From an uncultured virus (IMG/VR IMGVR_UViG_3300026521_000636) (lineage: Duplodnaviria; Heunggongvirae; Uroviricota; Caudoviricetes), in the IMG/VR virus record IMGVR_UViG_3300026521_000636: a DNA stretch of 64,000 nucleotides, one strand, 5' to 3'. The position numbers were made by a program, and so were the translations under genes. Position 1 is the first letter of the stretch. Every line of letters begins with the position of its first letter. Positions 3,483 to 24,287 of the stretch are shown here, piece after piece. Below the pieces are notes generated by a model, which was not told where the DNA came from, made no database searches, and saw only the letters and a list, made by a program, of their open reading frames with translations.

Positions 3483-3685
3483 TGATAACTGAAATTATAA
3501 GATTTAACTGTCATGTATTAAAGGTAAATAAATATAACAAAATAACTCCTGATGAATTGTTATTAGAATATAAAACTCGTAACAACCTTATTTTAGAAAA
3601 TACGGAAGTATATGTTGAAAGCTGTAAATGGGCTGCTGGAAGTACTAGTACTATTATAACAAAAGTGAAAAGGATAGAAAAATGA
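3482..3685 (+). CDS. hypothetical protein
   Basis: TAATG-coupled 67-aa ORF. Confidence 0.6.
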   Translation: MITEIIRFNCHVLKVNKYNKITPDELLLEYKTRNNLILENTEVYVESCKWAAGSTSTIITKVKRIEK

Positions 3686-4131
3686 CTTATGCTCAAAATA
3701 AAAAGGCTAGATTTAATTATGAAATCATAGAAATATTTGAAGCAGGGATTGTACTAACAGGTGGTGAAGTAAAATCTGTAAGAGATAGTACAATTTCTCT
3801 TAAAGAAAGCTATGTTAAAATAAAAAATAATGAATTATTTTTAACTCAAGCTCATGTTTCAGTCCCTACATACATACCATCATATGCAGTATTTGATGAA
3901 GTCCAAGATAGAAAATTGTTAATGCATAAAAGAGAGATTTTAAAACTTAAAAATAAATTGAAAGAACAGGGTTTGACTTTAATTGTATTATCAATTTATC
4001 AACGTGAAGGCACAAAAAAGATAAAAGTACAGTTGGCATTAGCTAGAGGTAAAAAATTATATAATAAAAAACAAACTATCAAAGAACGTGATATTAAACG
4101 AGATATGGAAAGAACATTAAAAAAATTCTAA
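3682..4131 (+). CDS. smpB: SsrA-binding protein SmpB
   Basis: NKKARFNYEI..FEAGIVLTGGEVKSVR, RKLLMHKREI, LARGKKLY.K...IKERD. Confidence 0.97.
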   Translation: MTYAQNKKARFNYEIIEIFEAGIVLTGGEVKSVRDSTISLKESYVKIKNNELFLTQAHVSVPTYIPSYAVFDEVQDRKLLMHKREILKLKNKLKEQGLTLIVLSIYQREGTKKIKVQLALARGKKLYNKKQTIKERDIKRDMERTLKKF

Positions 4132-4135
4132 TAGG

Positions 4136-4143
4136 TATAAATA
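4136..4143 (+). promoter_or_regulatory. T4-like late promoter TATAAATA (representative copy)
   Basis: Exact TATAAATA 12-30 nt upstream of genes also at 19019(+), 28289(+), 12962(-), 25168(-), 29543(-), 30211(-). Confidence 0.65.
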
Positions 4144-4171
4144 ATTATAAAATAATCTTAGGAGCAATAAA

Positions 4172-4465
4172 ATGGCAAGAAAGAAAAAGATTCAAGAAGA
4201 AGTAGAAGTACCAGTTGTTGAAGTAACTGATGAAGAGATTCAAGAAGAAGTAGAAGTAGAAGTAGAAGTACCAGTTGTTGAAGTAACTGATGAAGAGATT
4301 CAAGAAGAAGTAACTGATGATTTTGATAATATTGCAATTACTGATTATGCTATGGTATCAAATGAATTAGCAAAAAAAATACTTGAGAAAAAAGGTAAAA
4401 AAGTATTATTTGAAGAGCCAGAAGACGTTCAATCTAGCTTTCATATGAAACCATTAAAAAAATAA
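4172..4465 (+). CDS. acidic low-complexity protein with internal duplication
   Basis: AGGAG RBS, late promoter, EVEVPVVEVTDEEIQEE repeated. Confidence 0.75.
   Translation: MARKKKIQEEVEVPVVEVTDEEIQEEVEVEVEVPVVEVTDEEIQEEVTDDFDNIAITDYAMVSNELAKKILEKKGKKVLFEEPEDVQSSFHMKPLKK
4201..4312 (+). repeat. intragenic direct repeat, 52 nt identical at 60-nt period
   Basis: 4201-4252 is identical to 4261-4312. Confidence 0.9.
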
Positions 4466-4674
4466 TTTTTTATTGTAAAATAAAATTATATTAAATAAAA
4501 AAATGACTTTAAATTTTTAAGTGTTTAGTCATCACTTCATTAAATCAAAATATATTATGTTAGTCTCTGTATGTTAATAATAAAGTATATTCGTTAATAT
4601 ACGGAGGTTAATCCTCAAAAATATTTTTATAGACTTAAAAAATAATTGTGTTAGTCTATCACAAAGGAAAAATC

Positions 4675-5463
4675 ATGTATAACAAAAAATTAATAGCTTG
4701 TATAAAAGCTGATGGTAAAATTTTAAGAGAACAGGGTGAAAACGTATATCTCCCATTTGGTACAGAGTACCAAATTTTTCTTAAAAATGAAAACGATAGA
4801 AAGGTTGAAATATCCATAACTATTGATGGTGAAGATGTTTTAAATGGTAGTAAACTATTATTATCTCCAGGTAAAAATATGGAACTAAAAGGTTTTATTA
4901 GAGATATAAATGGTGGTGAAGATAATAGAGCTTTTAAATTTATAGAAAAAACTCAAGAGATTAGTGAATTTAGAGGTGATAAACCAGAAGATGGTCTTGT
5001 TAAAATTACTTATCAATTTGAACAAGAATCTATTACTAATAAACTTAGGGATTTTTGGTATTCTGATGATAGAATATATACAAATCATACTAACCCAAGT
5101 TTTGGACCTGGATTTATTGAAACATCGACTACACCTACATATGGAACAACAAGTATATCATCAAATGAAGTATTTTGTAGTACTGAGATGGTATCCAACA
5201 ATATTAGTACAAATGCTTTAAGAAATAATGATATGGGTATTACCGTAGAAGGTACTGCTACTAATCAAAAATTCCAAGAAGGTAATATCGGATATTTAGA
5301 AAATGAAACACATTCGATAATTCTTAAGCTAGTTGGTGTAAATGGTAATGAAAAGATTTCTGAACCTATAACTGTCAAAACAAAAAAGCAATGTCCATCT
5401 TGTGGACGAAAATATAAAAGTTCATTTCAATATTGTCCACAAGATGGGACATATTTAAGATGA
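4675..5463 (+). CDS. hypothetical protein with C-terminal zinc ribbon
   Basis: ATG at 4675 follows AAGGA RBS (preferred over GTG 4648); CPSC...CPQD at the C-terminus. Confidence 0.8.
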   Translation: MYNKKLIACIKADGKILREQGENVYLPFGTEYQIFLKNENDRKVEISITIDGEDVLNGSKLLLSPGKNMELKGFIRDINGGEDNRAFKFIEKTQEISEFRGDKPEDGLVKITYQFEQESITNKLRDFWYSDDRIYTNHTNPSFGPGFIETSTTPTYGTTSISSNEVFCSTEMVSNNISTNALRNNDMGITVEGTATNQKFQEGNIGYLENETHSIILKLVGVNGNEKISEPITVKTKKQCPSCGRKYKSSFQYCPQDGTYLR

Positions 5464-5490
5464 TTTGTATAATATATAAAAAGGATCAAA

Positions 5491-5757
5491 ATGAGTTATA
5501 AATTAGATTTATTAAATTCTACAAATAATAGTTTTTTGGGTTATATTGGTGCAGCTGTTTTAGGATACATTCTAAGTCTAATGTTTAATTTGGTATTATC
5601 CAATCAGGTGGGGACTGCCATAGTATTATATACTACCTATATGATATTTATCATAATTAGTCAAGTAATGTGTGAGAAAAATATTAAATATTTATGTCAA
5701 TTTAATGAATTTTGGTATTCTCTAGAACAATTAATCATTAATAAATTACATAGATAA
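5491..5757 (+). CDS. small membrane protein
   Basis: Two hydrophobic segments, AAGGA RBS. Confidence 0.7.
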   Translation: MSYKLDLLNSTNNSFLGYIGAAVLGYILSLMFNLVLSNQVGTAIVLYTTYMIFIIISQVMCEKNIKYLCQFNEFWYSLEQLIINKLHR

Positions 5758-5765
5758 AATTTAAT

Positions 5766-6185: not shown

Positions 6186-6188
6186 TTT

Positions 6189-6210: not shown

Positions 6211-6239
6211 TATGTATAAAATTATATAAGGAATATTAT

Positions 6240-7493
6240 ATGGCTATTTTACAGCTCCATTCTGATGATCCAAATTTTGGATACATTATCAAAAAAAACC
6301 CAAATTCATCTATGCAAATAAGAAGTATACGTAAAGGTACTGCTTTTACATGGTATTCTCATAATGGTACCGACTTTAATATTTATTTTAAAGATGCTGA
6401 TAATGATGTATCGTTTGGATCGCAAGAATTCGATTATCTAAATATTTCTAAATATAATTCACCGATGTTTATTATCAATGCAATAAGTGAGTTTTTTTCA
6501 AGTACTGTTAGAGAAGAATCAGAATTAGATATAAAAAGTTCAAAATATTTTTATATTAACTTACTTGAAATCAAAAGAATAAAACAATTAATGGATTTTA
6601 AGAAATATTTCCCTGATTTTGAAATTGAAATTACCGAACAAGTTGGGAAAAATTATACTATTAAAGTAATAACTGAAAATAGTTGGTTTATGTTATTAAA
6701 TTATATTAATCTTATGATGATTTTTATTGCATTATCAAGTAACGACTACGTACATTTAGATAGTTCAAATATTGAAAAATATCTAAATGCTATGAATCGA
6801 TTGGATGCACCATTTTTTATACGTTATTTAGTAAGTAGAAATCTTATTAAAAGTAAAAACCAATTTAAAAAATATAAACAATTACTTGAAAAATCAAAAA
6901 GATATAATATCAATATGGCATATGGTAATACGGCTATGCAACGGAAAGACAAAATAGAACGTTTATTATCATTTGATAAATCGATTCTTGATATTGGGTG
7001 TGGAGAAGGTTTTTATGCTATAGATTTTTCTAAAAAAATAGAAAAATATTCTTATAATGCCATTGACATTAATCCTAATCTATTAGAGTCGATCAAGATA
7101 AAAGCTTCAAAAAAAGAAATTACAAATATTAATCTCTTTAATAGTCTAGAAGATTTTATAAAGATTTACAATGATGAGTTAGTAGATATAATACTAACTG
7201 AAGTTATTGAACACATGCCAAAAGATGAATCAAAAAGATTAATAGAGACAGTATTGATGTCTATTAATTTTAATACATTCATTATTACCGTACCAAATAA
7301 AGACTTTAATATTTTTTATGAATTAGGTGATGAAATGAGACATGATGATCATGACTGGGAACCTACATTTGATGAATTTAAAAATTTTATAGCTAATTTT
7401 AATAATGATGGTTTATCTTTTGAATTTATAGAAATAGGTGATACTATCGATGGTATCTCTACAAGTATCGGTTGTATAATTAAAAAGGTATAA
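6240..7493 (+). CDS. hen1: Hen1 RNA 3'-terminal 2'-O-methyltransferase
   Basis: N-terminal Hen1-L-like start (FGYIIKKNP); SAM motif ILDIGCGEG, EVIEH, VPNKDFN, RHDDHDWE. Confidence 0.9.
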   Translation: MAILQLHSDDPNFGYIIKKNPNSSMQIRSIRKGTAFTWYSHNGTDFNIYFKDADNDVSFGSQEFDYLNISKYNSPMFIINAISEFFSSTVREESELDIKSSKYFYINLLEIKRIKQLMDFKKYFPDFEIEITEQVGKNYTIKVITENSWFMLLNYINLMMIFIALSSNDYVHLDSSNIEKYLNAMNRLDAPFFIRYLVSRNLIKSKNQFKKYKQLLEKSKRYNINMAYGNTAMQRKDKIERLLSFDKSILDIGCGEGFYAIDFSKKIEKYSYNAIDINPNLLESIKIKASKKEITNINLFNSLEDFIKIYNDELVDIILTEVIEHMPKDESKRLIETVLMSINFNTFIITVPNKDFNIFYELGDEMRHDDHDWEPTFDEFKNFIANFNNDGLSFEFIEIGDTIDGISTSIGCIIKKV

Positions 7494-7495
7494 AA

Positions 7496-8380
7496 ATGCT
7501 ATTAACATTTGGAGGATATGGTGGTGAATATTGCTGTGGTGAACTCAGTAAGCTTCATATTAACAATATAAAAGAACTACTTAGACGTTTTGAATACGAA
7601 GATATTATTGGACATTTCGATACAATTTTTAGTAGTAGTGGATGGGAAAGACAATATTATGATTTTGATGATATTGAACATATTTCTAGCTGTGCCATTG
7701 ATGGTAGTATTTCTATTAATCCTAATGAACGCGAACATACAAAGTATGATTCTATTAATATTAGTGATTTAACTATCAATATCAATGATGATGACTTTTT
7801 ATCTGATGGTTGGTATATTTCATCAGCTTCCATAGAAAAAGGTATTTTTTTTGAAGCAGAAATTTTAGATGATGTCAATGAATTTAATAAAGATTTACTG
7901 ATCATAGATGCAAAAGATACAGATTATATTGGTACTGGAGACATTTTAGTTACTGATGTTTTTTACAATAATAAAGTCCTCGAAATGAACTATGATGTTA
8001 TGGATACATTCGGTAAAGGTTTCTATCAAAGTATTTTTCATGTTAAAGATAGGATACATTATGACGGAAAGGAAAAACTCCTAGACGATTTTAAAAACTC
8101 TTTTAATATTATTGAAATGGTTGGTATGGATCGTGAAGATATAATCTTTGAATATTTAGAATATGTAGAAGCTGCAAATAATAAGCATTTAATAAAAGAT
8201 GATCGAATTATAGTTTGGGCTAGTCCATTCTTATATGAACATTTTGAAAAAGAAGATGTAGACCTTTTATGGATGACTGAAAAGAATATTAAATTCGCAT
8301 TGAAAAATGGTTTAAAAGATGAAATACCACCAAATATTTTTGAACGTATTATTATGAGGTTTCCAGAATGGCTAATTTAG
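7496..8380 (+). CDS. hypothetical acidic protein
   Basis: 294-aa ORF ending RFPEWLI. Confidence 0.75.
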   Translation: MLLTFGGYGGEYCCGELSKLHINNIKELLRRFEYEDIIGHFDTIFSSSGWERQYYDFDDIEHISSCAIDGSISINPNEREHTKYDSINISDLTININDDDFLSDGWYISSASIEKGIFFEAEILDDVNEFNKDLLIIDAKDTDYIGTGDILVTDVFYNNKVLEMNYDVMDTFGKGFYQSIFHVKDRIHYDGKEKLLDDFKNSFNIIEMVGMDREDIIFEYLEYVEAANNKHLIKDDRIIVWASPFLYEHFEKEDVDLLWMTEKNIKFALKNGLKDEIPPNIFERIIMRFPEWLI

Positions 8381-8658
8381 TATATGGTATTACCATTGAT
8401 AGAAAATTATTTCATGGCAAAATTATAAAATCCAGTTTGAAATCTATGATTTCTATTAAGACAGTTGATAATAGAATTTTAAATTTTCCTAAGTCTCATA
8501 AATTATTTAAAACAAAAGAAGAACGAGATATAGAAATTTTTTTAAATAATAATAATTTAAGCATAGATAAAGTTGCAGAGTTATATAATATTAACAAAAA
8601 AGAGGCAATTTTAGCTTACCAATCAGCTATTAAAAAATTTCCCGAAAAATTTATATAA
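8368..8658 (+). CDS. hypothetical protein
   Basis: 96-aa ORF ending KFPEKFI. Confidence 0.7.
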   Translation: MANLVYGITIDRKLFHGKIIKSSLKSMISIKTVDNRILNFPKSHKLFKTKEERDIEIFLNNNNLSIDKVAELYNINKKEAILAYQSAIKKFPEKFI

Positions 8659-8667
8659 AGGATCATT

Positions 8668-9261
8668 GTGAATATTAAAAGCAATATAAAATCTAACATT
8701 AAAGGTAAATCCTTAATAAGAACAAAATCTTACATTATACCGACTACTGTAACATTTCTTATAGGTTGTTTTATATGGTTATTAGATGGTAGCTGGGGAG
8801 TATATTTAACATTTTTAATTATAGGTATCATTACCCACTTTATTTATGTAGGTATAAATGAACATTCAAGATATAATCATGATCTGCATTGGGATAATGA
8901 AGCCTATTATAATTGGTTTGCCATTGTTGGTTTACCAATGATATTAATTGGTATTTTTTACCCATTTGCTATATCCCCAGCAATCCACGACTATTATCAT
9001 GCAGAACGAATTGATGAAGAAATACCTATCGACAAAAATATTTCTCTTATGTACAATGACTACCATAGTACATTTATATTAATGGTTGAAGGAGAAAAAC
9101 AACCTCTTCTAATTGATAAAGGTGGTTCTAGCGATACTTACAATCGTATGAAAGCTAGCTATCTTGATAAAAAAATAAAAGTAGTTAAAAAAAGATATAA
9201 ATCTTGGACTGATGACGAAATTCAAACAGTTTATCAGTTAGATGGTTACACATTCAAATAA
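8668..9261 (+). CDS. membrane protein
   Basis: Three hydrophobic segments; GTG start after AAGGA. Confidence 0.75.
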   Translation: MNIKSNIKSNIKGKSLIRTKSYIIPTTVTFLIGCFIWLLDGSWGVYLTFLIIGIITHFIYVGINEHSRYNHDLHWDNEAYYNWFAIVGLPMILIGIFYPFAISPAIHDYYHAERIDEEIPIDKNISLMYNDYHSTFILMVEGEKQPLLIDKGGSSDTYNRMKASYLDKKIKVVKKRYKSWTDDEIQTVYQLDGYTFK

Positions 9262-14612: not shown

Positions 14613-14616
14613 AATT

Positions 14617-17656: not shown

Positions 17657-17919
17657 TTTCTAATCCTCCAGAAGATTTAGTAGAGGTTGTGAAACTTCTA
17701 CTAACAGATAATCTTAAAGATTTTAAACCTTTAGATGATTTTATTAAAACAGATGAAAATGATTTGATAAAATATCATTTTAGTTTGGGTATGGAGTTAA
17801 GAAATCATTATAGTTTATGGACGAAAAGATTCGAAGATAAAAATGGCTTTGAAATTCATCCAGATGACGTATCATTTGAATTTATAAAATATGCTCATAC
17901 ACAATTAAAAATTAATTAG
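17653..17919 (+). CDS. hypothetical protein (DUF6794-like)
   Basis: HFSLGMELRNHYSLW...HPDDVS motif. Confidence 0.65.
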   Translation: MISNPPEDLVEVVKLLLTDNLKDFKPLDDFIKTDENDLIKYHFSLGMELRNHYSLWTKRFEDKNGFEIHPDDVSFEFIKYAHTQLKIN

Positions 17920-17927
17920 GAAAATTT

Positions 17928-18356
17928 ATGAAACCTACGTCTATTGGAATTATTCCCTATCGGTTTTCTGAAAACGGGGTATCTATTCTTTTAATGCGGT
18001 CTTCTAAGAAAAATGATAGATTCGATTTTGTTAAAGGTAAGATAGAACCTTATGAAACTAGAGTAGACTGTTGTTTACGAGAAGTTCAGGAAGAAATAGG
18101 TGTTTCACTTTCCAAAGAAGATTTAGACTTTTCTGTTAAGCAATACAATAAGAAGAAAAATATTGAATTATTCTTTATTCATTGGGATAAATATTTGTAT
18201 AAGCAATTTAAATTAGATGAACGAGAAGTTTTTGAACTAAAATGGTTTAATTTGAATGAAATACCTACAATTTCTCAGAACCAACGTTTGATTATTACGA
18301 AAATAAATGAAAGATTTAACAAATTACATCAACTACTAAGGAGTAACTATGTTTGA
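17928..18356 (+). CDS. Nudix hydrolase
   Basis: Nudix box KGKIEPYETRVDCCLREVQEEIG. Confidence 0.9.
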   Translation: MKPTSIGIIPYRFSENGVSILLMRSSKKNDRFDFVKGKIEPYETRVDCCLREVQEEIGVSLSKEDLDFSVKQYNKKKNIELFFIHWDKYLYKQFKLDEREVFELKWFNLNEIPTISQNQRLIITKINERFNKLHQLLRSNYV

Positions 18357-18498
18357 TGAATTAAAAATTACTTGTCTTAAAACTGGCGAATTTAAAATAC
18401 TTAATATATGGGAAAGTAGACTATCTATTCATGACCTCAATATTATAACATTGTTTTACAAAAATCATAAAGATTTTACTATTGAAGTTGTTGAATGA
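18349..18498 (+). CDS. small hypothetical protein (49 aa, not in ORF track)
   Basis: AAGGAG RBS; overlaps both neighbours and fills the operon gap. Confidence 0.6.
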   Translation: MFDELKITCLKTGEFKILNIWESRLSIHDLNIITLFYKNHKDFTIEVVE

Positions 18499-19016
18499 AC
18501 GCCTTGTTCTTAGATATTGATGGAGTTTTAAATAATTACCATCTTAAAGAACCATTTACTTTTCCAAACGGTTATACACAGCAACCAGTTAAAGGCACTC
18601 AAAATAAATGGAATGGTTTAATGGGTATGGATTATGATAAAGTTAATTTATTAAATGAAATACTTGAAAGTAACGAGTGGAAAGTAATAATATCAAGCTC
18701 TTGGTATTATTCGGATAGTACTGTTAATGCGTTAAAACATTTTGGTTTTAAATATTCAGATAGAATTATTGGTGGTACAAATAGAAAATCATATGGTAGA
18801 GGAAAACAAATCCTAGATGCTGTTGAAGATTTTAAAGTAACAGATTTTATTATTTTAGATGATGAACTATTTGATATTACTGGAAACTCTGAATTTGTTA
18901 GTAATAATATGCGAGAAATATTTAGAGATAGAGTGTTTAAAACAAATCCATACATAGGTTTAACTGAAAAGACAGTCTCTAATATTTTAAAAAGATTAGA
19001 CTATTTTATAATTTAA
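18495..19016 (+). CDS. HAD-family phosphatase (type found with RNA-repair proteins)
   Basis: FLDIDGVLN, IISSSW, ILDD. Confidence 0.85.
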   Translation: MNALFLDIDGVLNNYHLKEPFTFPNGYTQQPVKGTQNKWNGLMGMDYDKVNLLNEILESNEWKVIISSSWYYSDSTVNALKHFGFKYSDRIIGGTNRKSYGRGKQILDAVEDFKVTDFIILDDELFDITGNSEFVSNNMREIFRDRVFKTNPYIGLTEKTVSNILKRLDYFII

Positions 19017-19054: not shown

Positions 19055-19309
19055 ATGAAATTTTCAACAGTAAAAGAAATGGAAGAGACATTGAAAAAAA
19101 TTAAATCAAAAAAAGAATTATCTCAAGATATATCATTTAGAAGTCAAGGTGAAGAAATTTTTCTTGAATTTATAGGTGAAGGAACAAGACAAAATCTTAA
19201 AGATATGATATGGATAGGTAGAGAAACAGCAGATAATCTAAGGATTTCATTTGATGATAATGGCGATGATTCAATTAATATCCTAGAATATTCTTTAAAT
19301 AGAGGATAA
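19055..19309 (+). CDS. hypothetical protein (late promoter)
   Basis: GGAG RBS, TATAAATA at 19019. Confidence 0.7.
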   Translation: MKFSTVKEMEETLKKIKSKKELSQDISFRSQGEEIFLEFIGEGTRQNLKDMIWIGRETADNLRISFDDNGDDSINILEYSLNRG

Positions 19310-19313
19310 TAAA

Positions 19314-20465
19314 ATGCGAGTTGATAATATCTTAATAAAAACAGAGTATGGAGATATAGAAATCTCAGGAAGAGTAGATAGCGGTGAATTTATTCCAGAT
19401 GATTTAGATATTTCAACGGAATTAGGTGAATTTTTAGGAAAATGGATTGAAGCTGGAAATTTATTTTTTTCAGATAATGAAATTGATATGGTCGGTCAAG
19501 ATATTGATGATGATTTAATCGATGAATTAAAAAATTTCGTTACATTGAGTGATTTTTCAGATCCTATGAGAGCATTAGCTTTACATCAACATACAGGATA
19601 CGATTTTACAAATATTGATGAAGATAGAAACCCATACACATTTACATCTGGAAGAGAAGAATATATGGTTTTGACCGATGATGAAGCTGATGAAATGGCT
19701 AAAGAACGGGTTGAAAATTTATTAGATGATGTAGGATTTGATGGATTTAGTGATTGGGCTAAAGATCATGCATTAGATAATTTTATTGATACTGATTGGT
19801 TTGACGATGCAAAAATTGAAATGAGTATGAGCTATGCTGAAGATATTAAACACGAGGGTGCAAATTCGGATGAATACATTAATAGACTACATGAAGAAAT
19901 GGTAGAATTAGGTGTTCTTTTTGAACCGGAATGGCCTGAAGAACCAGATGAATCAGATTATACCTATGAAAGAGAGGAATTTGATAGTTCAGATTTTTAT
20001 GATAATGAACCAGTAGAAGATGATTATGAAACTGAAGAAGAATGGGAAGAAGCACATAGTAAATGGGAAGATGATTTATCAAATGCTGAAAAAGAATGGG
20101 AAGAAGAACAAGACCGTTTAGAAGAAGAAGCTCAAGAAGAATATGACGATGCGATTGAAGCTTGGGAACGTGAAAAAGAAGAATATGAATCAGATTTAGA
20201 AAATGATATAGATAATAATATTGAAGAGTTTGCTGAAAAACGTGTAGAAGATGAAGACGGCATCGAATATTGGAAAAATAATATTGGTGATATTTCCGAT
20301 GTAGTAAAAGAACAAGGTTTATTAGACGAAGACGCTTTTATAGAATGGATTGTTGAAACTGATGGTAGAGGTACTAATATTGCAACTTATGATGAGGCGG
20401 AGTACGAAGAAACTGTAACCTTAAATGGTGAAACTGAAGATTTTTATATTTACAGAACCGAATAA
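19314..20465 (+). CDS. highly acidic hypothetical protein
   Basis: 383 aa, D/E-rich with a coiled-coil-like segment. Confidence 0.8.
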   Translation: MRVDNILIKTEYGDIEISGRVDSGEFIPDDLDISTELGEFLGKWIEAGNLFFSDNEIDMVGQDIDDDLIDELKNFVTLSDFSDPMRALALHQHTGYDFTNIDEDRNPYTFTSGREEYMVLTDDEADEMAKERVENLLDDVGFDGFSDWAKDHALDNFIDTDWFDDAKIEMSMSYAEDIKHEGANSDEYINRLHEEMVELGVLFEPEWPEEPDESDYTYEREEFDSSDFYDNEPVEDDYETEEEWEEAHSKWEDDLSNAEKEWEEEQDRLEEEAQEEYDDAIEAWEREKEEYESDLENDIDNNIEEFAEKRVEDEDGIEYWKNNIGDISDVVKEQGLLDEDAFIEWIVETDGRGTNIATYDEAEYEETVTLNGETEDFYIYRTE

Positions 20466-20535: not shown

Positions 20536-21939
20536 ATGGCTTTATTAACTTACGATGAAGTATTAGAAATCACAAAAATAAATGAAACTTTTAAAATGAA
20601 ACACCAAAAAATAGGTAACACAGAAATTGCAATGTGTACTTATTTTTTAGCAAATGCAGGTGATTTTTTTGATGCAAAATTAGATGGCTCTATGGTTAGA
20701 GCCACAGAATTAAGAGGTATAACATTTGTAAAAGCTCCAAATTCAGACTGGAAAACATATTTGTTTATCGATAAATTTTTTAATATCGGTCAAACAAATG
20801 GAACTAATATAACAAATATGGAACTTTCTATCAATGACTCAACTGAAATTTGTAATATTAATAAACTTTTTATCGATGAAAATGAGAAAACATATCGTGC
20901 AATAGATTTAAAGTTAAATATGATTGTTGCTGAATTTGATAGAAATACTGAAACTCATGGGGATTTTTTTCAAATTTTATCACTAGATAAAAAAGTTTTA
21001 CCTACATTGAAACCTGAAAATTCTTGGATGTATGAGGATGTAAAAGATTTAGAAATTGTAAGAATTGCAAATAAAGAAGATGGATCCGCAATAAGATTTC
21101 TTTTAATTGAAGGAAAATTAGTGGCTAAAACAAAATTTTCTTTTGAATCAGAACAATGCAAATTAGCTATGGAAATAGTTGAAAAAGATCCTAAACTTAA
21201 AGCATTTATTTTAACAACTTTAGAGTTTGGATATGCAGCAATTTTTGAAATAGTTTCACCATTTAATAAAATCGTTTTAACATATCCAGAAACATCTCTT
21301 AGATTGTTGCAACTAAGAGATGAAAATAATGATGGGTTATATCTAAATATATATGATAATACATTAGTAAAAGCATTTAATATCTTGACTGCCAATCAAG
21401 AACCTTTATACACACTTGATGAGTTACTTAAATTAAAAGAAACCGTTGAAGATAAAGAAGGTTGGGTAATTACATTTGAAAATGGAAAAATGGCAAAGGT
21501 AAAAACTGATTGGTATATGTCACTTCATGGTATTTTAACTGATGGGTTAAAAGAACATAAAATAATTGAAAAGGTTTTAGACGAAACGATTGATGATACT
21601 ATAGCAATGATACCAGAAGAAAATATTGAAGAACGAGATTTTATTGATGGTATCTCTGAAATTATAATTAATCATGTAAATCATTTAGTGTCAGATGCAG
21701 AAGCTAAATTTAAAAATTCATGGAATGGAAATAAAAAAGAGTTAGCACTAAAATTTAAGGATGATAAACGTGCTTTTCCATATATAATGAGTTTTGCAAA
21801 TGGAAAAAATATTGAAGAAATTGAAAAACAAGTTATAGATAGAGTTAAATTTGAATGTAGACGTTTAGAAATGGCTAAACAATACCTTAAAAATTTAGGT
21901 TTTGACAAAGAACTCGAAATAAAAATTGAGGATGATTAA
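20536..21939 (+). CDS. T4 Rnl1-family RNA ligase with ~70-aa insertion
   Basis: ELRGITF, KFFNIG, motif I KEDGS, FEIVSPFNKIV, EGWVI, KVKTDWY. Confidence 0.9.
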   Translation: MALLTYDEVLEITKINETFKMKHQKIGNTEIAMCTYFLANAGDFFDAKLDGSMVRATELRGITFVKAPNSDWKTYLFIDKFFNIGQTNGTNITNMELSINDSTEICNINKLFIDENEKTYRAIDLKLNMIVAEFDRNTETHGDFFQILSLDKKVLPTLKPENSWMYEDVKDLEIVRIANKEDGSAIRFLLIEGKLVAKTKFSFESEQCKLAMEIVEKDPKLKAFILTTLEFGYAAIFEIVSPFNKIVLTYPETSLRLLQLRDENNDGLYLNIYDNTLVKAFNILTANQEPLYTLDELLKLKETVEDKEGWVITFENGKMAKVKTDWYMSLHGILTDGLKEHKIIEKVLDETIDDTIAMIPEENIEERDFIDGISEIIINHVNHLVSDAEAKFKNSWNGNKKELALKFKDDKRAFPYIMSFANGKNIEEIEKQVIDRVKFECRRLEMAKQYLKNLGFDKELEIKIEDD

Positions 21940-21941
21940 TC

Positions 21942-22109
21942 ATGAAATACGGTTTTAGTTTATTTGAATTAATTATTGTAGTTGTAATATTGGGAATTCT
22001 AGCAGCAGTTGCTATTCCTAGATTATCAAATTCTTCATCAAATAATGATAAAATTTCATACAAAAAAATAATTTTTACTAATGGTGATGGTGGATCCGCC
22101 GAGAATTGA
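21942..22109 (+). CDS. 55-aa type IV prepilin-like peptide (not in ORF track)
   Basis: MKYG|FSLFELIIVVVILGILAAVAIPRL class III signal with Glu+5; GAGG RBS; 3' end overlaps the tmRNA 3' end on the opposite strand. Confidence 0.7.
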   Translation: MKYGFSLFELIIVVVILGILAAVAIPRLSNSSSNNDKISYKKIIFTNGDGGSAEN

Positions 22110-22469
22110 ACTCGGGTCTGCCACTACTTCCATTTAAATCTCATTTACAAGTTTAGTTTGATTTTTAATACTTTAATACTTAGATAACCAAACAAATCGG
22201 TATTAAAGGCACTTGATATAATTTTCGTCTAAAGGTATCAAGTTTAACTTTAGCTTATCTATTTTTTATTATACACTCTGTATTTATTAGTAAATAGACA
22301 ACTAATAAACTGAGTGATTCCGGGCTCCCAGAGGGAGGATTAAGCAGCTACTCTCGCAGTCTGTGGAATATAAAGTTTTGTGTTTGCATTTAAGCTTTTT
22401 TGATGATTAAGTCATCACTCTACTTGCAATTTAAATTTCTTATAGCAACATCGATCCCAATTCGGACCC
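22088..22469 (-). ncRNA. ssrA: tmRNA (382 nt), tag ANTKLYIPQTARVAA
   Basis: 5' GGGUCCG pairs with CGGAUCC-ACCA 3' including G3-U70; T-arm CCGAG-UUCAAUU-CUCGG; resume context UUAAAU-GCA; tag ORF 22387-22340 ends VAA-stop. Confidence 0.95.
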
Positions 22470-22476
22470 ATAAAAA

Positions 22477-22507
22477 ATATCAGTATATAGAAATTATATA
22501 CTGATAT
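22477..22507. terminator. perfect 13-bp hairpin just upstream of tmRNA
   Basis: ATATCAGTATATA-gaaat-TATATACTGATAT with a U-run on the minus strand; also contains a minus-strand TATAAT. Confidence 0.5.
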
Positions 22508-22787
22508 GATAATATCCTTTATTTTATACCCAAGGTAACAAAGAACCCTTTACATAAAAAAACACATACGATATTAATTTATCTTTTTACTTGTAAGTAA
22601 ATTAGAGCGTTATCAATTAAGATAAATACGTTCCATAAGAGTTATTTTCTCTAGGTCAATCTCTAAGATAAAATTTTAAAGAGTAATTTAAATCTCTTAT
22701 ATATTTATTTTACAATTTTTAATTTAATTATAAGGTATTTTTTGATATAATATATTACAAATTTTAAATAATTAAGGAGATTGTCCT

Positions 22788-24287
22788 ATGGCAAAATTTA
22801 ACCAAGGTACTAAAAGTATCCCAAATAGTAAAAATATGGCTGGAGGGGTATCATATGATCGCCCAATAAAAAAAGAGGTTGCGACTGTTGTTTTAAACTC
22901 TATGCTTAATGGTGATTCATATTATGAAAAAGAAGGTGAACGTTTAAAACGAATTGAAACTCTTATCACTACATCAAAGTCTGATGCTGAGTTTGTAGCA
23001 AAAGCTATGGTGTTTACTAGAACAAATGGTCGTCTTAGAAGTATTTCACATTTCATGGCAAATATTTTAGCAGAAAATGTAAAAGGTAGTGACTTTTTAC
23101 GTTCAGCATTAACAAAAGCTATTGTAAGACCGGATGATATGACAGAAATGTTATCACTTTGGGATACAAGAAATCCAAATAAAATGGTTCCGAATTCACT
23201 TAGAAGAGCCTTTAAGAAAGCTTTGGAAACTAAATTTGATGAATATCAATTTCGTAAATATGCTCAACCAAAATCAAAAGTGAAACTAAAAGATGTCGTT
23301 AAACTAGCACATCCTTCACCTAAGAATTTTGATGATGAAACTATTTTTAAAAGAGTTATCGAAGATCAATTAAAGGCTGTTGAAACAGCACAAACTATCA
23401 ATGCATCTAAAACTGGTGAAGATCGAGTTGAAGCATATATGAAAGAAATTAAATCTGGTAAAATGGGTTATATGGCAGCATTAAAAAATATTAGAACATT
23501 GATGGAAAATAATATTTCAGAAGATGACTTAAAACAATGGTCTAATTTTATAACTGATCCTAAAAGGGTACAAAAATCAATGGTACTTCCATTTAGATTT
23601 GTTGATGCATGGAATGCTGTAAAAGATTTACCTATTAATGAATTTAAGAAAAATATTGTTAAGAAAGCACTTGAGAGAGCTTTTGCCCTATCAGCTGGAA
23701 ATACAAATATTGCTTCTGATGATGAAAAAGTGGCTATTTTACTTGATGAATCAGGTTCTATGGGCGGATATTCAAATAATGACCGTAAAACACCATTTTA
23801 TATTGGTAAAGTATTATCAGCTGCGATGAAAGTAGGTATGGATGATGATAAGTGTCTGTTTTATACTTGGGCAGATACATGTACAAGAAGAGATATAAAA
23901 GGTTTGTCATCTTTTGATTTTATCAATAATTTAAATACTAGAGGTGGAGGTACTGATGTATCAGCTCCTTTAAAAGAGTTAATTAAAACAAAAACATTTG
24001 TTGATAAAATTATAATCTTTAGTGATATGCAGATGTATGGTGGATGGGGAAATATTGGAGATCAACTCAAAAATTATTTAAAAACATATCGTAAAGAAGT
24101 CAATCCAAATGTAAAAGTATTATTTTGGAATTTAGAAGGATATGGTGGTGGTTCACCATTAGATATTGAAAAAACATCTGATATTTTTGAAGTAGCTGGT
24201 TTTTCAGATAGCATGCTTCAAATTATACCTAAATTATGGAGTGATAAAGATTTTTTAATTAAAGAGATTGAAGCTATATCACTTTAA
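22788..24287 (+). CDS. rsr: Ro60/TROVE-domain RNA-binding protein with C-terminal vWA domain
   Basis: N.AGG.SY start, LRS, RPDD, KFDEYQFRKY, LKDVVKLAHP, GYMAALKNIR, LPFRF; vWA MIDAS DESGSM, GGGTD, FSDMQ. Confidence 0.92.
   Translation: MAKFNQGTKSIPNSKNMAGGVSYDRPIKKEVATVVLNSMLNGDSYYEKEGERLKRIETLITTSKSDAEFVAKAMVFTRTNGRLRSISHFMANILAENVKGSDFLRSALTKAIVRPDDMTEMLSLWDTRNPNKMVPNSLRRAFKKALETKFDEYQFRKYAQPKSKVKLKDVVKLAHPSPKNFDDETIFKRVIEDQLKAVETAQTINASKTGEDRVEAYMKEIKSGKMGYMAALKNIRTLMENNISEDDLKQWSNFITDPKRVQKSMVLPFRFVDAWNAVKDLPINEFKKNIVKKALERAFALSAGNTNIASDDEKVAILLDESGSMGGYSNNDRKTPFYIGKVLSAAMKVGMDDDKCLFYTWADTCTRRDIKGLSSFDFINNLNTRGGGTDVSAPLKELIKTKTFVDKIIIFSDMQMYGGWGNIGDQLKNYLKTYRKEVNPNVKVLFWNLEGYGGGSPLDIEKTSDIFEVAGFSDSMLQIIPKLWSDKDFLIKEIEAISL

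What the first reader, a model, noticed from the sequence alone, without database searches (positions are those of the whole stretch)
3682..24287. Layered phage-encoded RNA-repair and ribosome-rescue arsenal
Seen within 21 kb: SmpB, Hen1, Pnkp, an RlmN-like enzyme, Thg1, Nudix, HAD, an Rnl1 ligase, tmRNA and Ro60. Known: Pnkp/Hen1 heals, seals and 2'-O-methylates ribotoxin-cut RNA; T4 Rnl1 repairs anticodon breaks; Thg1-like proteins repair tRNA 5' ends; Ro60 handles damaged structured RNA; tmRNA/SmpB frees ribosomes stalled on broken mRNA. Inference: one phage covers damage to tRNA, mRNA and stalled ribosomes, with two independent ligation systems. This would be a broad counter-defence against host RNase-based immunity. 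Each part is known in phages; I do not know this full combination as a described unit.
Basis: partly seen in the sequence, partly recalled or inferred. Interest (0 to 1): 0.8.

Follow-up and report, generated by a model that had tools for sequence, protein, structure and literature searches.

The report
Phage RNA-repair and ribosome-rescue gene island
A very large phage from vent-type metagenomes carries, in one 21-kb stretch, intact-looking genes for freeing stalled ribosomes and for mending broken RNA; the stretch is kept in its close relatives, but it is a richer example of something already described for giant phages, not a new kind of system.

Summary
The motifs I checked by alignment or pattern are intact.

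The record is a 224-kb IMG/VR virus contig (28% GC, 22 tRNAs, RIIA/RIIB). I found no virion genes in it.

The block is collinear in a near-identical contig and in a relative with 57% identical Pnkp. That relative has SmpB, Hen1, Pnkp, PncA, NadE, Rnl1, tmRNA and Ro60 in the same order. The flanking non-RNA genes are collinear too.

None of 32 other Pnkp/Hen1-bearing viral records has the full set (SmpB 0 of 32).

Contigs from two RNA libraries match many of the genes.

Multi-part RNA-repair complements in jumbo phages, tmRNA/SmpB in huge phages, Pnkp/Hen1 in XacN1 and a phage Ro60 are all in print. I read this as a loosely clustered, lineage-specific island that maintains the translation apparatus. 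Counter-defence is the likeliest role, but it is not shown. I rate it a new variant of a known kind, of moderate interest.

The parts
3682..4131 (+). SmpB, tmRNA-binding protein, 149 aa with C-terminal basic tail
   Evidence: Pfam SmpB 1.4e-48. NCBIfam NF003843 scores 166.9 bits, above the cut-off of 130. Sequence.
4172..4465 (+). o97: acidic-repeat protein of unknown function, kept next to SmpB in relatives
   Evidence: No family. tblastn hits in L040, L045 and L049 in the same position.
4675..5463 (+). o271 (262 aa from the ATG at 4675): Ig-like beta-sandwich, disordered linker and C-terminal zinc ribbon; function unknown
   Evidence: 245 homologues, none named. AF2 mean pLDDT 81. Only generic beta-sandwich fold matches, Z at most 7.8. 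Kept in L040, L045 and L049.
6240..7493 (+). Hen1: N-terminal ligase-activating domain plus 3'-terminal RNA 2'-O-methyltransferase domain
   Evidence: Hen1_N 1.5e-64. PDB 4xrp_C 4.3e-39 over residues 3-413, with ILDIGCGEG, EVIEH and RHDDHDWE aligned to the same motifs.
7496..9261 (+). Three ORFs (294, 96 and 197 aa; the last is hydrophobic) inserted between Hen1 and Pnkp; variable among relatives
   Evidence: No family. Hen1 and Pnkp are directly adjacent in L047 and in most other loci.
9271..11961 (+). Pnkp, 896 aa: 5'-kinase, 2',3'-phosphatase and ligase in one chain
   Evidence: The P-loop G16-K22, D237/H239, G276-D277, G310-N311-H312 and K565 (KYMGS) are invariant across 22 and 29 homologues.
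13081..13719 (+). Isochorismatase-family, nicotinamidase-like protein (PncA-like)
   Evidence: Pfam Isochorismatase 2.3e-14. NF008623 7.6e-13, below its cut-off.
13716..14612 (+). Short RlmN/Cfr-like radical-SAM RNA methyltransferase lacking the N-terminal domain
   Evidence: TIGR00048 1e-35, covering model positions 73-342 of 355. PDB 6fz6 3.5e-20, with GCPVGCTFC, the upstream Cys (ICCS) and the C-terminal GGGCGQL aligned.
14617..15570 (+). NAD synthase NadE
   Evidence: Pfam NAD_synthase 3.1e-43. TIGR00552 142.8 bits, above the cut-off of 63.65. SGGLDS at residue 53.
16517..17656 (+). Thg1-like protein (3'-5' nucleotidyltransferase) with an insertion of about 130 aa
   Evidence: Pfam Thg1 4.8e-27. 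PDB 4kgk (chain named 'Thg1-like uncharacterized protein') 1.5e-22 in two stretches, residues 8-87 and 221-336, with RIDG and SDEIS aligned.
17653..18356 (+). DUF6794 protein (17653-17919) and Nudix hydrolase (17928-18356)
   Evidence: Pfam 2.3e-08 and 7.2e-16. Nudix box at residue 37.
18495..19016 (+). HAD_SAK_2 phosphatase-like protein (HAD domain of 'Swiss Army Knife' RNA repair proteins)
   Evidence: Pfam PF18143 2.1e-18. DIDGV at residue 7.
19055..20465 (+). o84 (19055-19309) and o383 (19314-20465): conserved unknowns always just upstream of Rnl1 in this clade
   Evidence: Kept in L040, L045 and L047. o383 has 393 relatives and an AF2 model with pLDDT 94, but no PDB fold match and no Pfam family.
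20536..21939 (+). Rnl1-family ATP-dependent RNA ligase with a clade-specific N-terminal extension of about 160 aa
   Evidence: T4 Rnl1 2c5u 1.8e-19, with the lysine motif KEDGS aligned. K180, D182 and G183 are invariant in 34 homologues.
22088..22469 (-). tmRNA; tag ANTKLYIPQTARVAA
   Evidence: ARAGORN. Rfam RF00023 115.5 bits. Acceptor stem with G3:U70 and a 3' CCA, read. A 326-nt RNA-library contig lies inside the gene.
22788..24287 (+). Ro60 (TROVE ring plus vWA domain with MIDAS motif DESGS)
   Evidence: PDB 9l5y/9kop 1.3e-14 over residues 12-434; these entries are the Ro60 of Thermus phage phiLo, per PMC12135203.

Best explanation
The stretch is a lineage-specific gene island of a very large phage (estimated about 260 kb) that bundles several separate activities. 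Together they keep the translation apparatus working during infection.

Shown by sequence:
- A complete trans-translation pair: SmpB, plus a tmRNA that can be charged with alanine and carries a tag reading frame.
- A Pnkp/Hen1 pair with kinase, phosphatase, ligase and methyltransferase motifs intact.
- A second, T4 Rnl1-type ligase, with an HAD-type phosphatase and two conserved unknown partners just upstream.
- A Thg1-like 3'-5' polymerase.
- A Ro60 ring protein.
- A short RlmN-like RNA methylase.
- An embedded NAD-salvage pair (nicotinamidase-like protein and NadE) with a Nudix hydrolase.

Inferred from the known biochemistry of these families:
- When host or competitor RNases cut tRNA anticodon loops, rRNA or mRNA, tmRNA/SmpB releases the jammed ribosomes.
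- Pnkp heals and seals 2',3'-cyclic-phosphate/5'-OH breaks, and Hen1 methylates the junction so that it cannot be cut again.
- Rnl1 reseals anticodon breaks as in T4.
- The Thg1-like enzyme rebuilds damaged tRNA 5' ends.
- Ro60 handles misfolded RNA, possibly by recruiting host PNPase.

The parts are neighbours in a collinear accessory region. They are not one operon or one machine.
For: SmpB passes NCBI's equivalog cut-off, and tmRNA scores 115.5 bits against a gathering score of 47.

Conservation points to purifying selection:
- L040 (Pnkp 94% identical) has every ORF from SmpB to Rnl1 in order.
- L045 (Pnkp 57%) has SmpB, o97, o271, Hen1, Pnkp, m126, PncA, NadE, o144, o84, o383, Rnl1 and Ro60. 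A tmRNA of 92.1 bits lies on the minus strand between Rnl1 and Ro60.
- L047 has Hen1, Pnkp, Thg1, o84, o383 and Rnl1 with no NAD genes between them.
- L049 has SmpB, o97, o271, Hen1, o197 and Pnkp.
- Pnkp catalytic residues are invariant in 29 clade members.

The phage tRNA-His has a genomic G at -1 and C73. G-1 need not be added after transcription, which fits a repair role rather than a tRNA-His maturation role for the Thg1-like enzyme. Its best solved relative is the chain of PDB entry 4kgk.

Contigs from two RNA libraries of different studies match the genes with 0-1 differences:
- X6: Hen1/o294, o197, RlmN-like, o67/Thg1, Rnl1, tmRNA and Ro60.
- X9: o271, m126, RlmN-like, o383, tmRNA and Ro60.
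- The X6 contig inside the tmRNA has depth 240.6, against 4.3-13.7 for the other seven listed pieces.

The rest of the genome fits a translation and counter-defence theme: 22 tRNAs, EF-Tu, AspRS, two RlaP, an RNA_ligase (PF09414), a PNK, Acb1, NADAR, NAPRTase and NAD kinase.

In print: the same logic is proposed for jumbo phages (PMC7824862), and a rescue-plus-repair pairing is shown for bacterial PrfH-RtcB (PMC9304027, title and start of abstract only).
Against: - There is no functional evidence of any kind. The host and its defences are unknown.
- The island is interrupted by NAD genes, about 13 unknown ORFs and two opposite-strand ORFs, and the tmRNA is on the other strand.
- Flanking non-RNA genes (PD-(D/E)XK nuclease, UvsW_N) are equally collinear in L045, L047 and L049. 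Conserved order may therefore be plain genome collinearity.
- Membership varies: L047 lacks SmpB at this place, and L045 shows no RlmN-like, Thg1, Nudix or HAD in the 22.7 kb held.
- Outside the clade the parts do not co-occur.
- Hen1, Pnkp, Rnl1 and the RlmN-like protein all score below NCBI's equivalog cut-offs.
- No Y RNA partner for Ro60 was found.
- RNA-library contigs may derive from contaminating DNA, and contig depth is a poor measure of expression (tool caveats).
- No capsid or terminase gene was found in the 224-kb record. 'Phage' therefore rests on the IMG/VR classification plus RIIA, RIIB, endolysin, gp32-like SSB and Endo VII hits.
Confidence: 0.6

Rival explanations
1. The genes do housekeeping for the phage's own translation, not counter-defence. 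They would mature and maintain the phage's 22 tRNAs (5'-end editing by the Thg1-like enzyme, methylation by the RlmN-like enzyme, end processing by Pnkp/Hen1 and Rnl1). They would also clear ribosomes stalled on host mRNAs that the phage itself degrades during host shut-off, so that ribosomes are free for phage messages.
For: The genome is rich in general translation and proteostasis genes that have no obvious link to defence: EF-Tu, AspRS, GrpE, DnaJ, GroEL and Cpn10. It also has 22 tRNAs. Al-Shayeb et al. 2020 (PMC7162821, passages read) interpret huge-phage translation genes, tmRNA and SmpB included, mainly as sustaining translation. Several nucleases are encoded (Endonuclease I, PD-(D/E)XK).
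Against: Pnkp/Hen1 and Rnl1 act on 2',3'-cyclic-phosphate/5'-OH breaks. Their experimentally known contexts are ribotoxin damage and anticodon-nuclease defence (PMC4411300 abstract; T4 Rnl1/PrrC from my own knowledge). Neither enzyme is needed for normal tRNA maturation in bacteria. The phage tRNA-His already encodes G-1. 19 of the 22 tRNA genes ARAGORN called end in CCA.
Confidence: 0.25
2. The block is one integrated, co-regulated system in the strict sense, as the first reader's 'unit' implies: a single transcription unit whose products act as one pathway or complex, selected and transferred together.
For: Every protein-coding ORF called from 3682 to 11961 and from 13081 to 21939, together with Ro60, is on the + strand with short or overlapping junctions. 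The order is kept at 55-60% protein identity. In L047 the RNA genes stay adjacent although the NAD genes are absent.
Against: Two minus-strand ORFs and a minus-strand tmRNA break the block. Contents differ between relatives. In distant Pnkp-bearing viruses only Hen1 stays with Pnkp: 26 of 29 loci have Hen1 within 10 kb and 6 of 29 have Thg1, but none has SmpB, Rnl1, Ro60, RlmN-like or NadE within 10 kb. Whole-record searches gave SmpB in 0 of 28, TROVE in 5 of 28, Rnl1 in 5 of 28 and tmRNA above the gathering score in 4 of 28, and no record had all of them. The promoter and terminator scan was uninformative: 142 sites found against 149 expected.
Confidence: 0.1
3. The contig is not a phage but a plasmid-like or other cellular element, or a chimeric assembly. 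In that case these would be ordinary cellular RNA-repair and trans-translation genes.
For: No terminase or T4-type capsid match in 224 kb and no structural PHROG among the ORFs scanned. Two Rep3-type initiators lie in the window. There are many host-like signalling genes (GGDEF, MCP, PAS). Al-Shayeb et al. note that some large putative plasmids carry similar translation gene sets.
Against: The tools report the record as an IMG/VR virus record, 85% complete by CheckV. It has RIIA (1.5e-124), RIIB (1.2e-80), endolysin, gp32-like SSB, Endo VII, homing endonucleases and UvsW-like pieces. Long DNA contigs from two other studies tile almost all of the 20 kb laid, with 0-7 differences per piece in X2, which argues against a chimera. 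The closest relatives of several proteins are in cultured phages: Ro60 is 50% identical to that of Vibrio phages, and the RlmN-like protein is 44-55% identical to its phage counterparts.
Confidence: 0.05

Closest known systems
Bacterial Pnkp/Hen1 and Pnkp1-Rnl-Hen1 RNA repair systems (PDB 4xrp/4xru; Wang et al. 2015, PMC4411300, title and abstract seen; the source organisms, Clostridium thermocellum and Capnocytophaga gingivalis, are recalled)
   Same: It has the Hen1 N-terminal domain plus methyltransferase, and kinase, phosphatase and ligase modules with conserved motifs. Hen1 lies upstream of Pnkp as in bacterial loci, where 77 of 80 have Hen1 beside Pnkp. The ligase half and Hen1 match the 4xrp/4xru chains best.
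   Different: It is phage-borne and about 40% identical to the nearest cellular (Paenibacillaceae) Pnkp. Kinase, phosphatase and ligase are fused in one chain, as in the classical Pnkp, yet the ligase resembles the stand-alone Rnl of the three-protein system. Three extra ORFs lie between Hen1 and Pnkp. It scores below NCBI's equivalog cut-offs.
T4 Rnl1 with T4 polynucleotide kinase-phosphatase, which reverses PrrC anticodon-nuclease damage (recalled textbook knowledge; T4 Rnl1 structures 2c5u and 5tt6)
   Same: It is an Rnl1-family ligase with the adenylylation lysine motif. An HAD-family phosphatase lies 1.5 kb upstream (T4 Pnkp's phosphatase is also of the HAD type; recalled). The genome has RIIA/RIIB and other T4-like genes.
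   Different: The ligase has a clade-specific N-terminal extension of about 160 aa. It is always preceded by two unknown genes, o84 and o383. The kinase is not fused to the HAD domain. It scores below the TIGR02308 cut-off.
RNA-repair and NAD-salvage complements of jumbo phages (Iyer, Anantharaman, Krishnan, Burroughs and Aravind 2021, PMC7824862; passages of sections 3.4.6-3.4.9 read)
   Same: The same cast: many tRNAs, Rnl1/Rnl2 ligases, PNK, phosphoesterases, RlaP, Thg1, a TROVE protein, and NAD salvage next to RNA repair. The same proposed purpose, which is to undo host attacks on the translation apparatus.
   Different: That paper's main text has no occurrence of Hen1, SmpB or tmRNA. Here these are joined to the rest in one 21-kb stretch, and RtcB, peptidyl-tRNA hydrolase (Pth) and RF-1-domain rescue factors are absent.
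Xanthomonas jumbo phage XacN1 and four other cultured phages with Hen1 (Yoshikawa et al. 2018, PMC5852040, passages read)
   Same: The phage encodes Hen1 next to a Pnkp-type ligase, and also Thg1.
   Different: In the cultured phages the ligase is a stand-alone protein of about 400 aa. The kinase is a separate ORF (XacN1), or Hen1 is the N-terminal part of a protein of about 720 aa (RYC, sm033). None of the 4 records examined has SmpB, TROVE or a tmRNA above the gathering score. The fifth record, CM1, was not examined.
tmRNA and SmpB of huge phages (Al-Shayeb et al. 2020, PMC7162821, passages read)
   Same: A phage-encoded tmRNA plus SmpB, in a genome over 200 kb with many translation genes.
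   Different: Here the pair brackets an RNA-repair block, and the arrangement is kept in a relative with 57% identical Pnkp.
Ro60 of Thermus phage phiLo with its two Y-like RNAs and host PNPase (PMC12135203, abstract and passages read); bacterial Ro60 with YrlA
   Same: It is the best solved relative (9kop/9l5y): a TROVE ring plus a vWA domain with a MIDAS motif.
   Different: phiLo has two Y-like RNAs with a CGAA motif upstream of the gene. Here the 318-nt upstream spacer has no CGAA on either strand and no Rfam YrlA match. The upstream neighbour is the tmRNA gene instead.

Membership tests
Pnkp/Hen1 RNA repair system | Pnkp with a P-loop 5'-kinase, a binuclear metallophosphoesterase and an adenylyltransferase (ligase) module with a motif-I lysine | tested here: met
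   AAA_33 and PNKP_ligase are above the Pfam cut-offs. 4j6o matches the phosphatase and 4xru_B the ligase, with KYMGS aligned. G16-K22, D237/H239, G276-D277, N311-H312 and K565 are invariant in 22 and 29 homologues.
Pnkp/Hen1 RNA repair system | Hen1 with an N-terminal ligase-activating domain and a C-terminal SAM-dependent 2'-O-methyltransferase with metal-binding motifs | tested here: met
   Hen1_N scores 218 bits against a cut-off of 27. The alignment to 4xrp_C covers the full length and keeps GCGEG, EVIEH and RHxDHxxE.
Pnkp/Hen1 RNA repair system | Hen1 and Pnkp genes are neighbours | tested here: met
   They are 1.8 kb apart with three ORFs between them. They are adjacent in L047 and in most of the 29, 78 and 80 loci examined.
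Pnkp/Hen1 RNA repair system | Score above NCBI's equivalog cut-offs (TIGR04075, TIGR04074) | tested here: not met
   196.6 bits against 750, and 65.2 bits against 340. The phage clade is too divergent to be called an equivalog of the bacterial proteins. Membership holds at Pfam-family level only.
Pnkp/Hen1 RNA repair system | Heal-seal-methylate activity on cleaved RNA; Pnkp-Hen1 complex formation | not testable with these tools
tmRNA-SmpB trans-translation | tmRNA with a tRNA-like domain, G3:U70 alanine identity, a 3' CCA and a tag reading frame ending in a stop codon | tested here: met
   Rfam 115.5 bits over model positions 1-374 of 374. ARAGORN gives the tag ANTKLYIPQTARVAA*. Acceptor 5' GGGUCCG / 3' CGGAUCC-A-CCA, read.
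tmRNA-SmpB trans-translation | Full-length SmpB including the C-terminal tail | tested here: met
   The equivalog cut-off is passed, with model positions 12-155 of 156 covered.
T4 Rnl1 (RnlA) RNA ligase family | Nucleotidyltransferase domain with the motif-I lysine (KxDG) | tested here: met
   Pfam 49.6 bits against a cut-off of 28.3. KEDGS aligns to T4 Rnl1 KEDGS. K180, D182 and G183 are invariant.
T4 Rnl1 (RnlA) RNA ligase family | NCBI equivalog score (TIGR02308) | tested here: not met
   95.7 bits against 242.25. It is a family member but not an equivalog, and it has an extra N-terminal region.
Thg1 / Thg1-like proteins | Thg1 catalytic core with the metal-binding carboxylates | tested here: met
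   Pfam 94.9 bits against a cut-off of 29.2. RIDG and SDEIS align to 4kgk. That these residues are the carboxylate motifs is recalled.
Thg1 / Thg1-like proteins | Contiguous fold of about 240 aa | tested here: not met
   The protein is 379 aa, with about 130 residues inserted between the two matched stretches. L047's homologue is 259 aa without the insertion. The effect on activity is unknown.
RlmN/Cfr radical-SAM RNA methyl synthases | A CxxxCxxC cluster motif plus the two mechanistic cysteines | tested here: met
   GCPVGCTFC, the upstream ICCS and the C-terminal GGGCGQL align to 6fz6. The roles of the two cysteines are recalled.
RlmN/Cfr radical-SAM RNA methyl synthases | N-terminal accessory domain, and an equivalog-level score | tested here: not met
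   The match begins at model position 73 of 355. The score is 123.3 bits against 290. I therefore call it 'RlmN-like', not RlmN. The same short form is found in 13 other phage records at 44-55% identity.
Ro60 (TROVE) ribonucleoprotein | TROVE ring plus a vWA domain with a MIDAS motif | tested here: met
   TROVE 59.1 bits against a cut-off of 23. vWA_Ro60 scores 23.6 bits, below its cut-off of 27.7. DESGS aligns with DVSGS of 9l5y.
Ro60 (TROVE) ribonucleoprotein | A Y RNA partner encoded nearby | tested here: inconclusive
   Rfam gave no match at E up to 5 in window 1-30000. YrlA hits in the whole record fall only inside the tRNA array. There is no CGAA in the upstream spacer. Divergent Y RNAs could escape all three tests.

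The most novel reading that the evidence does not exclude
The island is a physically coupled 'rescue-then-repair' pathway rather than a loose collection.

- Phage tmRNA/SmpB strips ribosomes jammed by cleaved tRNA or mRNA and hands the broken RNAs to Pnkp/Hen1 and Rnl1.
- Ro60 has no detectable Y RNA here, and its gene sits next to the tmRNA gene in both genomes where this part could be seen. It would use the tmRNA, through its tRNA-like domain, as its RNA partner.
- The conserved o84/o383 pair would be a new-fold cofactor module for the extended Rnl1.
Probability: 0.08. Interest if true: 0.75.

Novelty: new variant of a known kind. Interest (0 to 1): 0.45.

Why it matters
If the island works as inferred, it is one of the most complete single-locus toolkits against RNA-targeting immunity seen in a virus. 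It combines two heal-and-seal routes, protective 2'-O-methylation, tRNA 5'-end repair, RNA quality control, ribosome rescue and NAD resupply. That makes a compact set of genes to clone and test against anticodon nucleases, ribotoxins and HEPN or Cas13 effectors. It would also allow a test of whether ribosome rescue and RNA repair are coupled in phage infection, as shown for bacterial PrfH-RtcB. In addition it flags conserved unknown genes (o84/o383 beside Rnl1; o97/o271 beside SmpB) as candidate new players. If it does not work as inferred, it is one more example of the translation-gene hoarding already known in huge phages.

Tried and rejected
- Close relatives in cultured phages: megablast of the 20.6-kb block against 50,697 phage records found no match.
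- Single-protein scans of IMG/VR with Pnkp and with Thg1 gave no relatives. Alignment-based scans worked.
The metagenome records behind L040, L045, L047 and L049 are not held, so I could not see their remaining sequence. This includes the part of L040 downstream of Rnl1, where a tmRNA and Ro60 would be expected.
- Y RNA partner for Ro60:
  - Rfam with a permissive threshold found none.
  - YrlA model hits over the whole record fall only in the tRNA array.
  - The upstream spacer has no CGAA motif.
  - The 318-nt spacer folds better than shuffles (z -3.1) but does not align with L045.
  - L045 has about 1.1 kb of extra ORF-free DNA with a long stem (z -2.3). I could not test this further.
- Function of o383: no Pfam family for it or for 53 relatives, none for 20 longer fused relatives apart from one weak hit, no PDB sequence match, Foldseek best E 3.3, VIA-align best Z 6.4 on the long helix only, and ESM Atlas gave only unnamed viral clusters.
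- Function of o271: only generic beta-sandwich fold matches.
- Complex prediction for o383 with Rnl1 was not available, so no binding claim is made.
- The promoter and terminator scan was uninformative in this AT-rich DNA: 142 promoter-like sites against 149 expected, and 6 terminator-like sites against 3.9.
- Virion genes: no Terminase_6N match. There was also no Gp23 match, but the controls for Gp23 did not ring either, so that answer shows nothing.
- Other rescue and repair factors: no RtcB, RF-1 domain or Pth family match in the 224-kb record. The record is estimated 85% complete, so absence is not proven.
- RNA-library cover: some 667-nt bins had no contig in X6 (3 of 30) or X9 (13 of 30). 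With contigs this proves nothing.
- Burroughs and Aravind 2016 (PMC5062991), the paper cited in PMC7824862 (its ref. 178) for these RNA-repair systems, is not held. It may already describe some of these gene associations, for example Ro60 next to Hen1-Pnkp.

Full report
**What the record is**

The window is bases 159350-223349 of a single 224,467-bp contig. The contig has 28% GC, no terminal repeat, 22 tRNA genes and one tmRNA. The tools report it as an IMG/VR virus record, linear, 85% complete by CheckV.

Phage-type genes are present. In the window there are RIIA (1.5e-124), RIIB (1.2e-80), a UvsW-like piece and a PD-(D/E)XK exonuclease. Elsewhere there are an endolysin, a gp32-like SSB, Endo VII, homing endonucleases and a DnaB-like helicase.

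I found no capsid, portal, terminase or tail gene among the ORFs scanned. A six-frame search for Terminase_6N found nothing. The Gp23 search is uninformative because its controls did not ring. Long DNA contigs from two other studies tile almost all of the 20 kb laid, with 0-7 differences per piece in X2, so the assembly is not a chimera.

**The observation**

The block 3682-24287 runs exactly from the SmpB start to the Ro60 stop.

- a nicotinamidase-like isochorismatase-family gene (13081-13719) and NadE (14617-15570), which flank and overlap the RlmN-like gene;
- a DUF6794 gene;
- two minus-strand ORFs (12237-12940);
- about 13 ORFs with no family;
- that the tmRNA is on the minus strand.

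**Are the genes intact?**

- **Pnkp** (896 aa) has all three modules. The P-loop, the metallophosphoesterase motifs and the ligase lysine (K565 in KYMGS) are invariant in alignments of 22 and 29 homologues.
  - Its ligase half matches the stand-alone Rnl chain of PDB entries 4xru/4xrp (a Pnkp1-Rnl-Hen1 complex, PMC4411300) at 3.5e-46. It matches the ligase domain chains of entries 3ty9/4drf only at about 1e-16.
  - Its phosphatase matches 4j6o.
- **Hen1** aligns over its full length to the Hen1 chain of 4xrp and keeps the SAM and metal motifs.
- **Rnl1** keeps the KEDGS lysine motif of T4 Rnl1. It has a clade-specific N-terminal extension.
- **The Thg1-like protein** keeps RIDG and SDEIS. It carries an insertion of about 130 aa relative to its best solved relative, the chain of PDB entry 4kgk named 'Thg1-like uncharacterized protein'.
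- **The RlmN-like protein** keeps the radical-SAM cysteines and both mechanistic cysteines but lacks the N-terminal domain.
- **SmpB** passes NCBI's equivalog cut-off.
- **The tmRNA** covers the whole Rfam model. Read directly, it has a G3:U70 acceptor pair and a 3' CCA.
- **Ro60** has the MIDAS motif.
- **NadE, Nudix and the HAD protein** have their signature motifs.

Hen1, Pnkp, Rnl1 and the RlmN-like protein all score below NCBI's equivalog cut-offs. They are divergent family members, not equivalogs.

**Comparison with relatives**

Pnkp has a clade of about 30 homologues at 53-63% identity. Below that come Paenibacillaceae-type bacterial proteins at about 40%. A metagenome scan with the clade alignment gave 78 loci. 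I compared them with the island's proteins by tblastn.

| Locus | Pnkp identity | Contig | Island genes found, in order |
|---|---|---|---|
| L040 | 94% | 221.5 kb | every ORF from SmpB to Rnl1 |
| L045 | 57% | 261 kb | SmpB, o97, o271, Hen1, Pnkp, m126, PncA, NadE, o144, o84, o383, Rnl1, Ro60 |
| L047 | 54% | 20 kb | Hen1, Pnkp, Thg1, o84, o383, Rnl1 |
| L049 | 55% | 31 kb | SmpB, o97, o271, Hen1, o197, Pnkp (contig end) |

- In L045 a tmRNA (Rfam 92.1 bits, minus strand) lies between Rnl1 and Ro60, exactly as in the window.
- In L047 no NAD genes lie between the RNA genes, and there is no SmpB.
- The genes upstream of the island (PD-(D/E)XK nuclease, UvsW_N and small ORFs) are collinear as well.

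So the order is conserved under purifying selection. However, part of that conservation is ordinary genome collinearity, and the contents are in flux: the RlmN-like gene, Thg1, DUF6794, Nudix and HAD were seen only in some members.

**Outside the clade the combination dissolves**

- Of 29 IMG/VR loci with a Pnkp relative, 26 have Hen1 within 10 kb and 6 have Thg1. None has SmpB, Rnl1, Ro60, RlmN-like or NadE within 10 kb.
- Whole-record searches of the 28 records held gave:
  - SmpB in 0 of 28;
  - TROVE in 5 of 28;
  - Rnl1 in 5 of 28;
  - tmRNA above the gathering score in 4 of 28.

  Three records have Pnkp, Rnl1 and tmRNA, but none has the full set.
- Among 50,697 deposited phage records only 5 have Hen1, and none has a Pnkp covering at least 80% of the query. 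In the 4 of those 5 that I examined, the system is split into separate kinase, Hen1 and ligase ORFs. SmpB, TROVE and tmRNA are absent.
- The 635-kb uncultured phage LR745206.1 has Ro60, SmpB, Thg1 and Rnl1 at 241, 333, 369 and 471 kb. It is not among the Hen1 or Pnkp hits.
- In 80 bacterial-genome loci, Hen1 accompanies Pnkp in 77. Ro60 lies within 10 kb in 8 of them, immediately upstream of Hen1 in 6. One such metagenome locus (L062) has a YrlA-like RNA upstream of Ro60. An association of Ro60 with Hen1-Pnkp therefore also exists in bacteria.

**Expression hints**

Two RNA libraries from different studies hold contigs that match the island with 0-1 differences.
- X6: Hen1/o294, o197, RlmN-like, o67/Thg1, Rnl1, tmRNA and Ro60 (two pieces).
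- X9: o271, m126, RlmN-like (two pieces), o383 (two pieces), tmRNA and Ro60.

The X6 contig lying wholly inside the tmRNA gene has depth 240.6. The other seven listed X6 pieces have depths of 4.3-13.7. The tool warns that RNA libraries can contain DNA and that contig depth should not be used to rank genes. I take this as a weak hint that the tmRNA is an abundant RNA, and no more.

**How it most likely works**

Shown: the sequence features above.

Inferred from established biochemistry of the families:
- tmRNA/SmpB frees ribosomes stalled on broken messages or by broken tRNA.
- Pnkp heals and seals breaks with a 2',3'-cyclic phosphate and a 5'-OH, and Hen1 methylates the 2'-OH at the junction so that it cannot be cut again.
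- Rnl1 reseals anticodon-loop breaks as in T4. The HAD protein is a candidate 3'-phosphatase for this route.
- The Thg1-like enzyme rebuilds tRNA 5' ends. The phage tRNA-His already encodes G-1 opposite C73, which argues against a simple tRNA-His maturation role.
- Ro60 binds misfolded RNAs and may recruit host PNPase, as shown for the phiLo phage Ro60 (PMC12135203).
- PncA-like, NadE and Nudix belong with the NAPRTase, NAD kinase, NADAR and SIR2 genes elsewhere in the genome. Together they form an NAD-resupply theme that Iyer et al. also place beside RNA repair.

Counter-defence is the most likely purpose, but it is not shown. The main rival is that these genes sustain the phage's own translation. 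That could include clearing ribosomes stalled by the phage's own host shut-off, in a genome that also carries EF-Tu, AspRS, GroEL/ES, DnaJ and GrpE.

**What is known and what is new**

Already in print:
- Multi-component RNA-repair complements of jumbo phages (tRNAs, Rnl1/Rnl2/RtcB, PNK, RlaP, CCA-adding enzyme, Thg1, TROVE, PTH2, NAD salvage): PMC7824862, passages read.
- tmRNA and SmpB in huge phages: PMC7162821, passages read.
- Pnkp, Hen1 and Thg1 in phage XacN1: PMC5852040, passages read.
- A phage Ro60 with Y-like RNAs: PMC12135203.

In the library searched, only one paper holds both 'Hen1' and 'SmpB', and it concerns bacterial PrfH-RtcB. The jumbo-phage overview does not mention Hen1, SmpB or tmRNA. 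Burroughs and Aravind 2016 could not be read.

What appears new is:
- the particular combination, and its conservation as one stretch in a phage clade;
- the fused three-module Pnkp with an Rnl-like ligase half in phages;
- the conserved tmRNA-Ro60 adjacency without a detectable Y RNA;
- the conserved unknown neighbours (o84/o383 with Rnl1; o97/o271 with SmpB).

**Verdict**

I rate it a new variant of a known kind, interest 0.45.

Noticed in passing
window 21942-22109 (+): A 55-codon ORF directly after Rnl1 begins with a classic prepilin/pseudopilin N-terminus (MKYGFSLFELIIVVVILGILAAVAIP...). Its last 22 nt overlap the 3' end of the tmRNA gene on the other strand. L045 has a different minus-strand ORF at this place.
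   Followed up: no
window 16517-17656, residues about 88-221 of the Thg1-like protein: An insertion of about 130 aa splits the Thg1 fold. It has no Pfam family and no intein-like ends. It is present in L040, but the L047 homologue is 259 aa without it.
   Followed up: partly
L045 20340-21450: About 1.1 kb of ORF-free DNA lies between tmRNA and Ro60 in the 57% relative and is absent from the window. It has a long-range stem (ggtctgtattgtga / tcacaatacagacc) and repeated elements, folding z -2.3. It is a candidate Y-like RNA locus.
   Followed up: partly
L062 5644-6004; also L057, L089 and eight genome-contig loci (for example L131, L180, L183, L190): In Paenibacillus-type bacteria, Ro60 sits immediately upstream of Hen1-Pnkp in some species. 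In L062 it is preceded by a YrlA-like RNA (43.5 bits) and a 94-nt tRNA-like element. I did not find a Ro60-Hen1-Pnkp operon association in the papers I could read.
   Followed up: partly
window 13716-14612 and phage records H209-H221: The short RlmN-like radical-SAM protein without the N-terminal domain forms a phage clade: 13 deposited phages at 44-55% identity, infecting Stenotrophomonas, Xanthomonas, Aeromonas, Salmonella and Vibrio. Two are annotated as 'prohibitin family protein'. The target RNA is unknown.
   Followed up: partly
G000:C1 about 26.8-28.1 kb, 116.0-116.8 kb, 151.8-154.0 kb; window 32454-33032; C1 75.0-77.2 kb; C1 15.0-16.3 kb; C1 39.6-41.3 kb: The phage carries at least four GGDEF-domain proteins (some with PAS), an HDOD protein, a PAS/Tll0287 protein and a methyl-accepting chemotaxis protein with a NIT sensor domain. 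This is an unusually large signalling repertoire for a virus.
   Followed up: no
G000:C1 about 124.7-125.2 kb, 121.2-121.7 kb, 114.6-116.0 kb, 52.2-53.0 kb; window 50884-51729: Other counter-defence and NAD genes lie outside the finding: Acb1 (anti-CBASS, 1e-33), NADAR (5e-48), NAPRTase-like, NAD kinase-like and SIR2. There are also two RlaP nucleotidyltransferases, a PF09414 RNA ligase (C1 17728-18390) and a PNK (C1 about 141.4-141.9 kb).
   Followed up: partly
window 44636-45796 (+) and 51730-52950 (-): Two Rep3-type replication initiator genes, of a type usual for plasmids, lie near RIIA/RIIB.
   Followed up: no
G000:C1 97.9-110 kb and 126.7-129.3 kb: Seven paralogues of an unknown PHROG family (phrog_10773, about 440-530 aa each) are interleaved with QueD, QueE-like, radical-SAM and oxidoreductase genes.
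   Followed up: no
phage records AP014858.1 (RYC) 115349-117502 and OV032902.1 (sm033) 82315-84495: In two Vibrio phages Hen1 is the N-terminal part of an ORF of about 720 aa annotated 'polynucleotide kinase'. The stand-alone Pnkp-type ligase is the gene just upstream. This is a different fusion pattern from both bacterial systems.
   Followed up: partly
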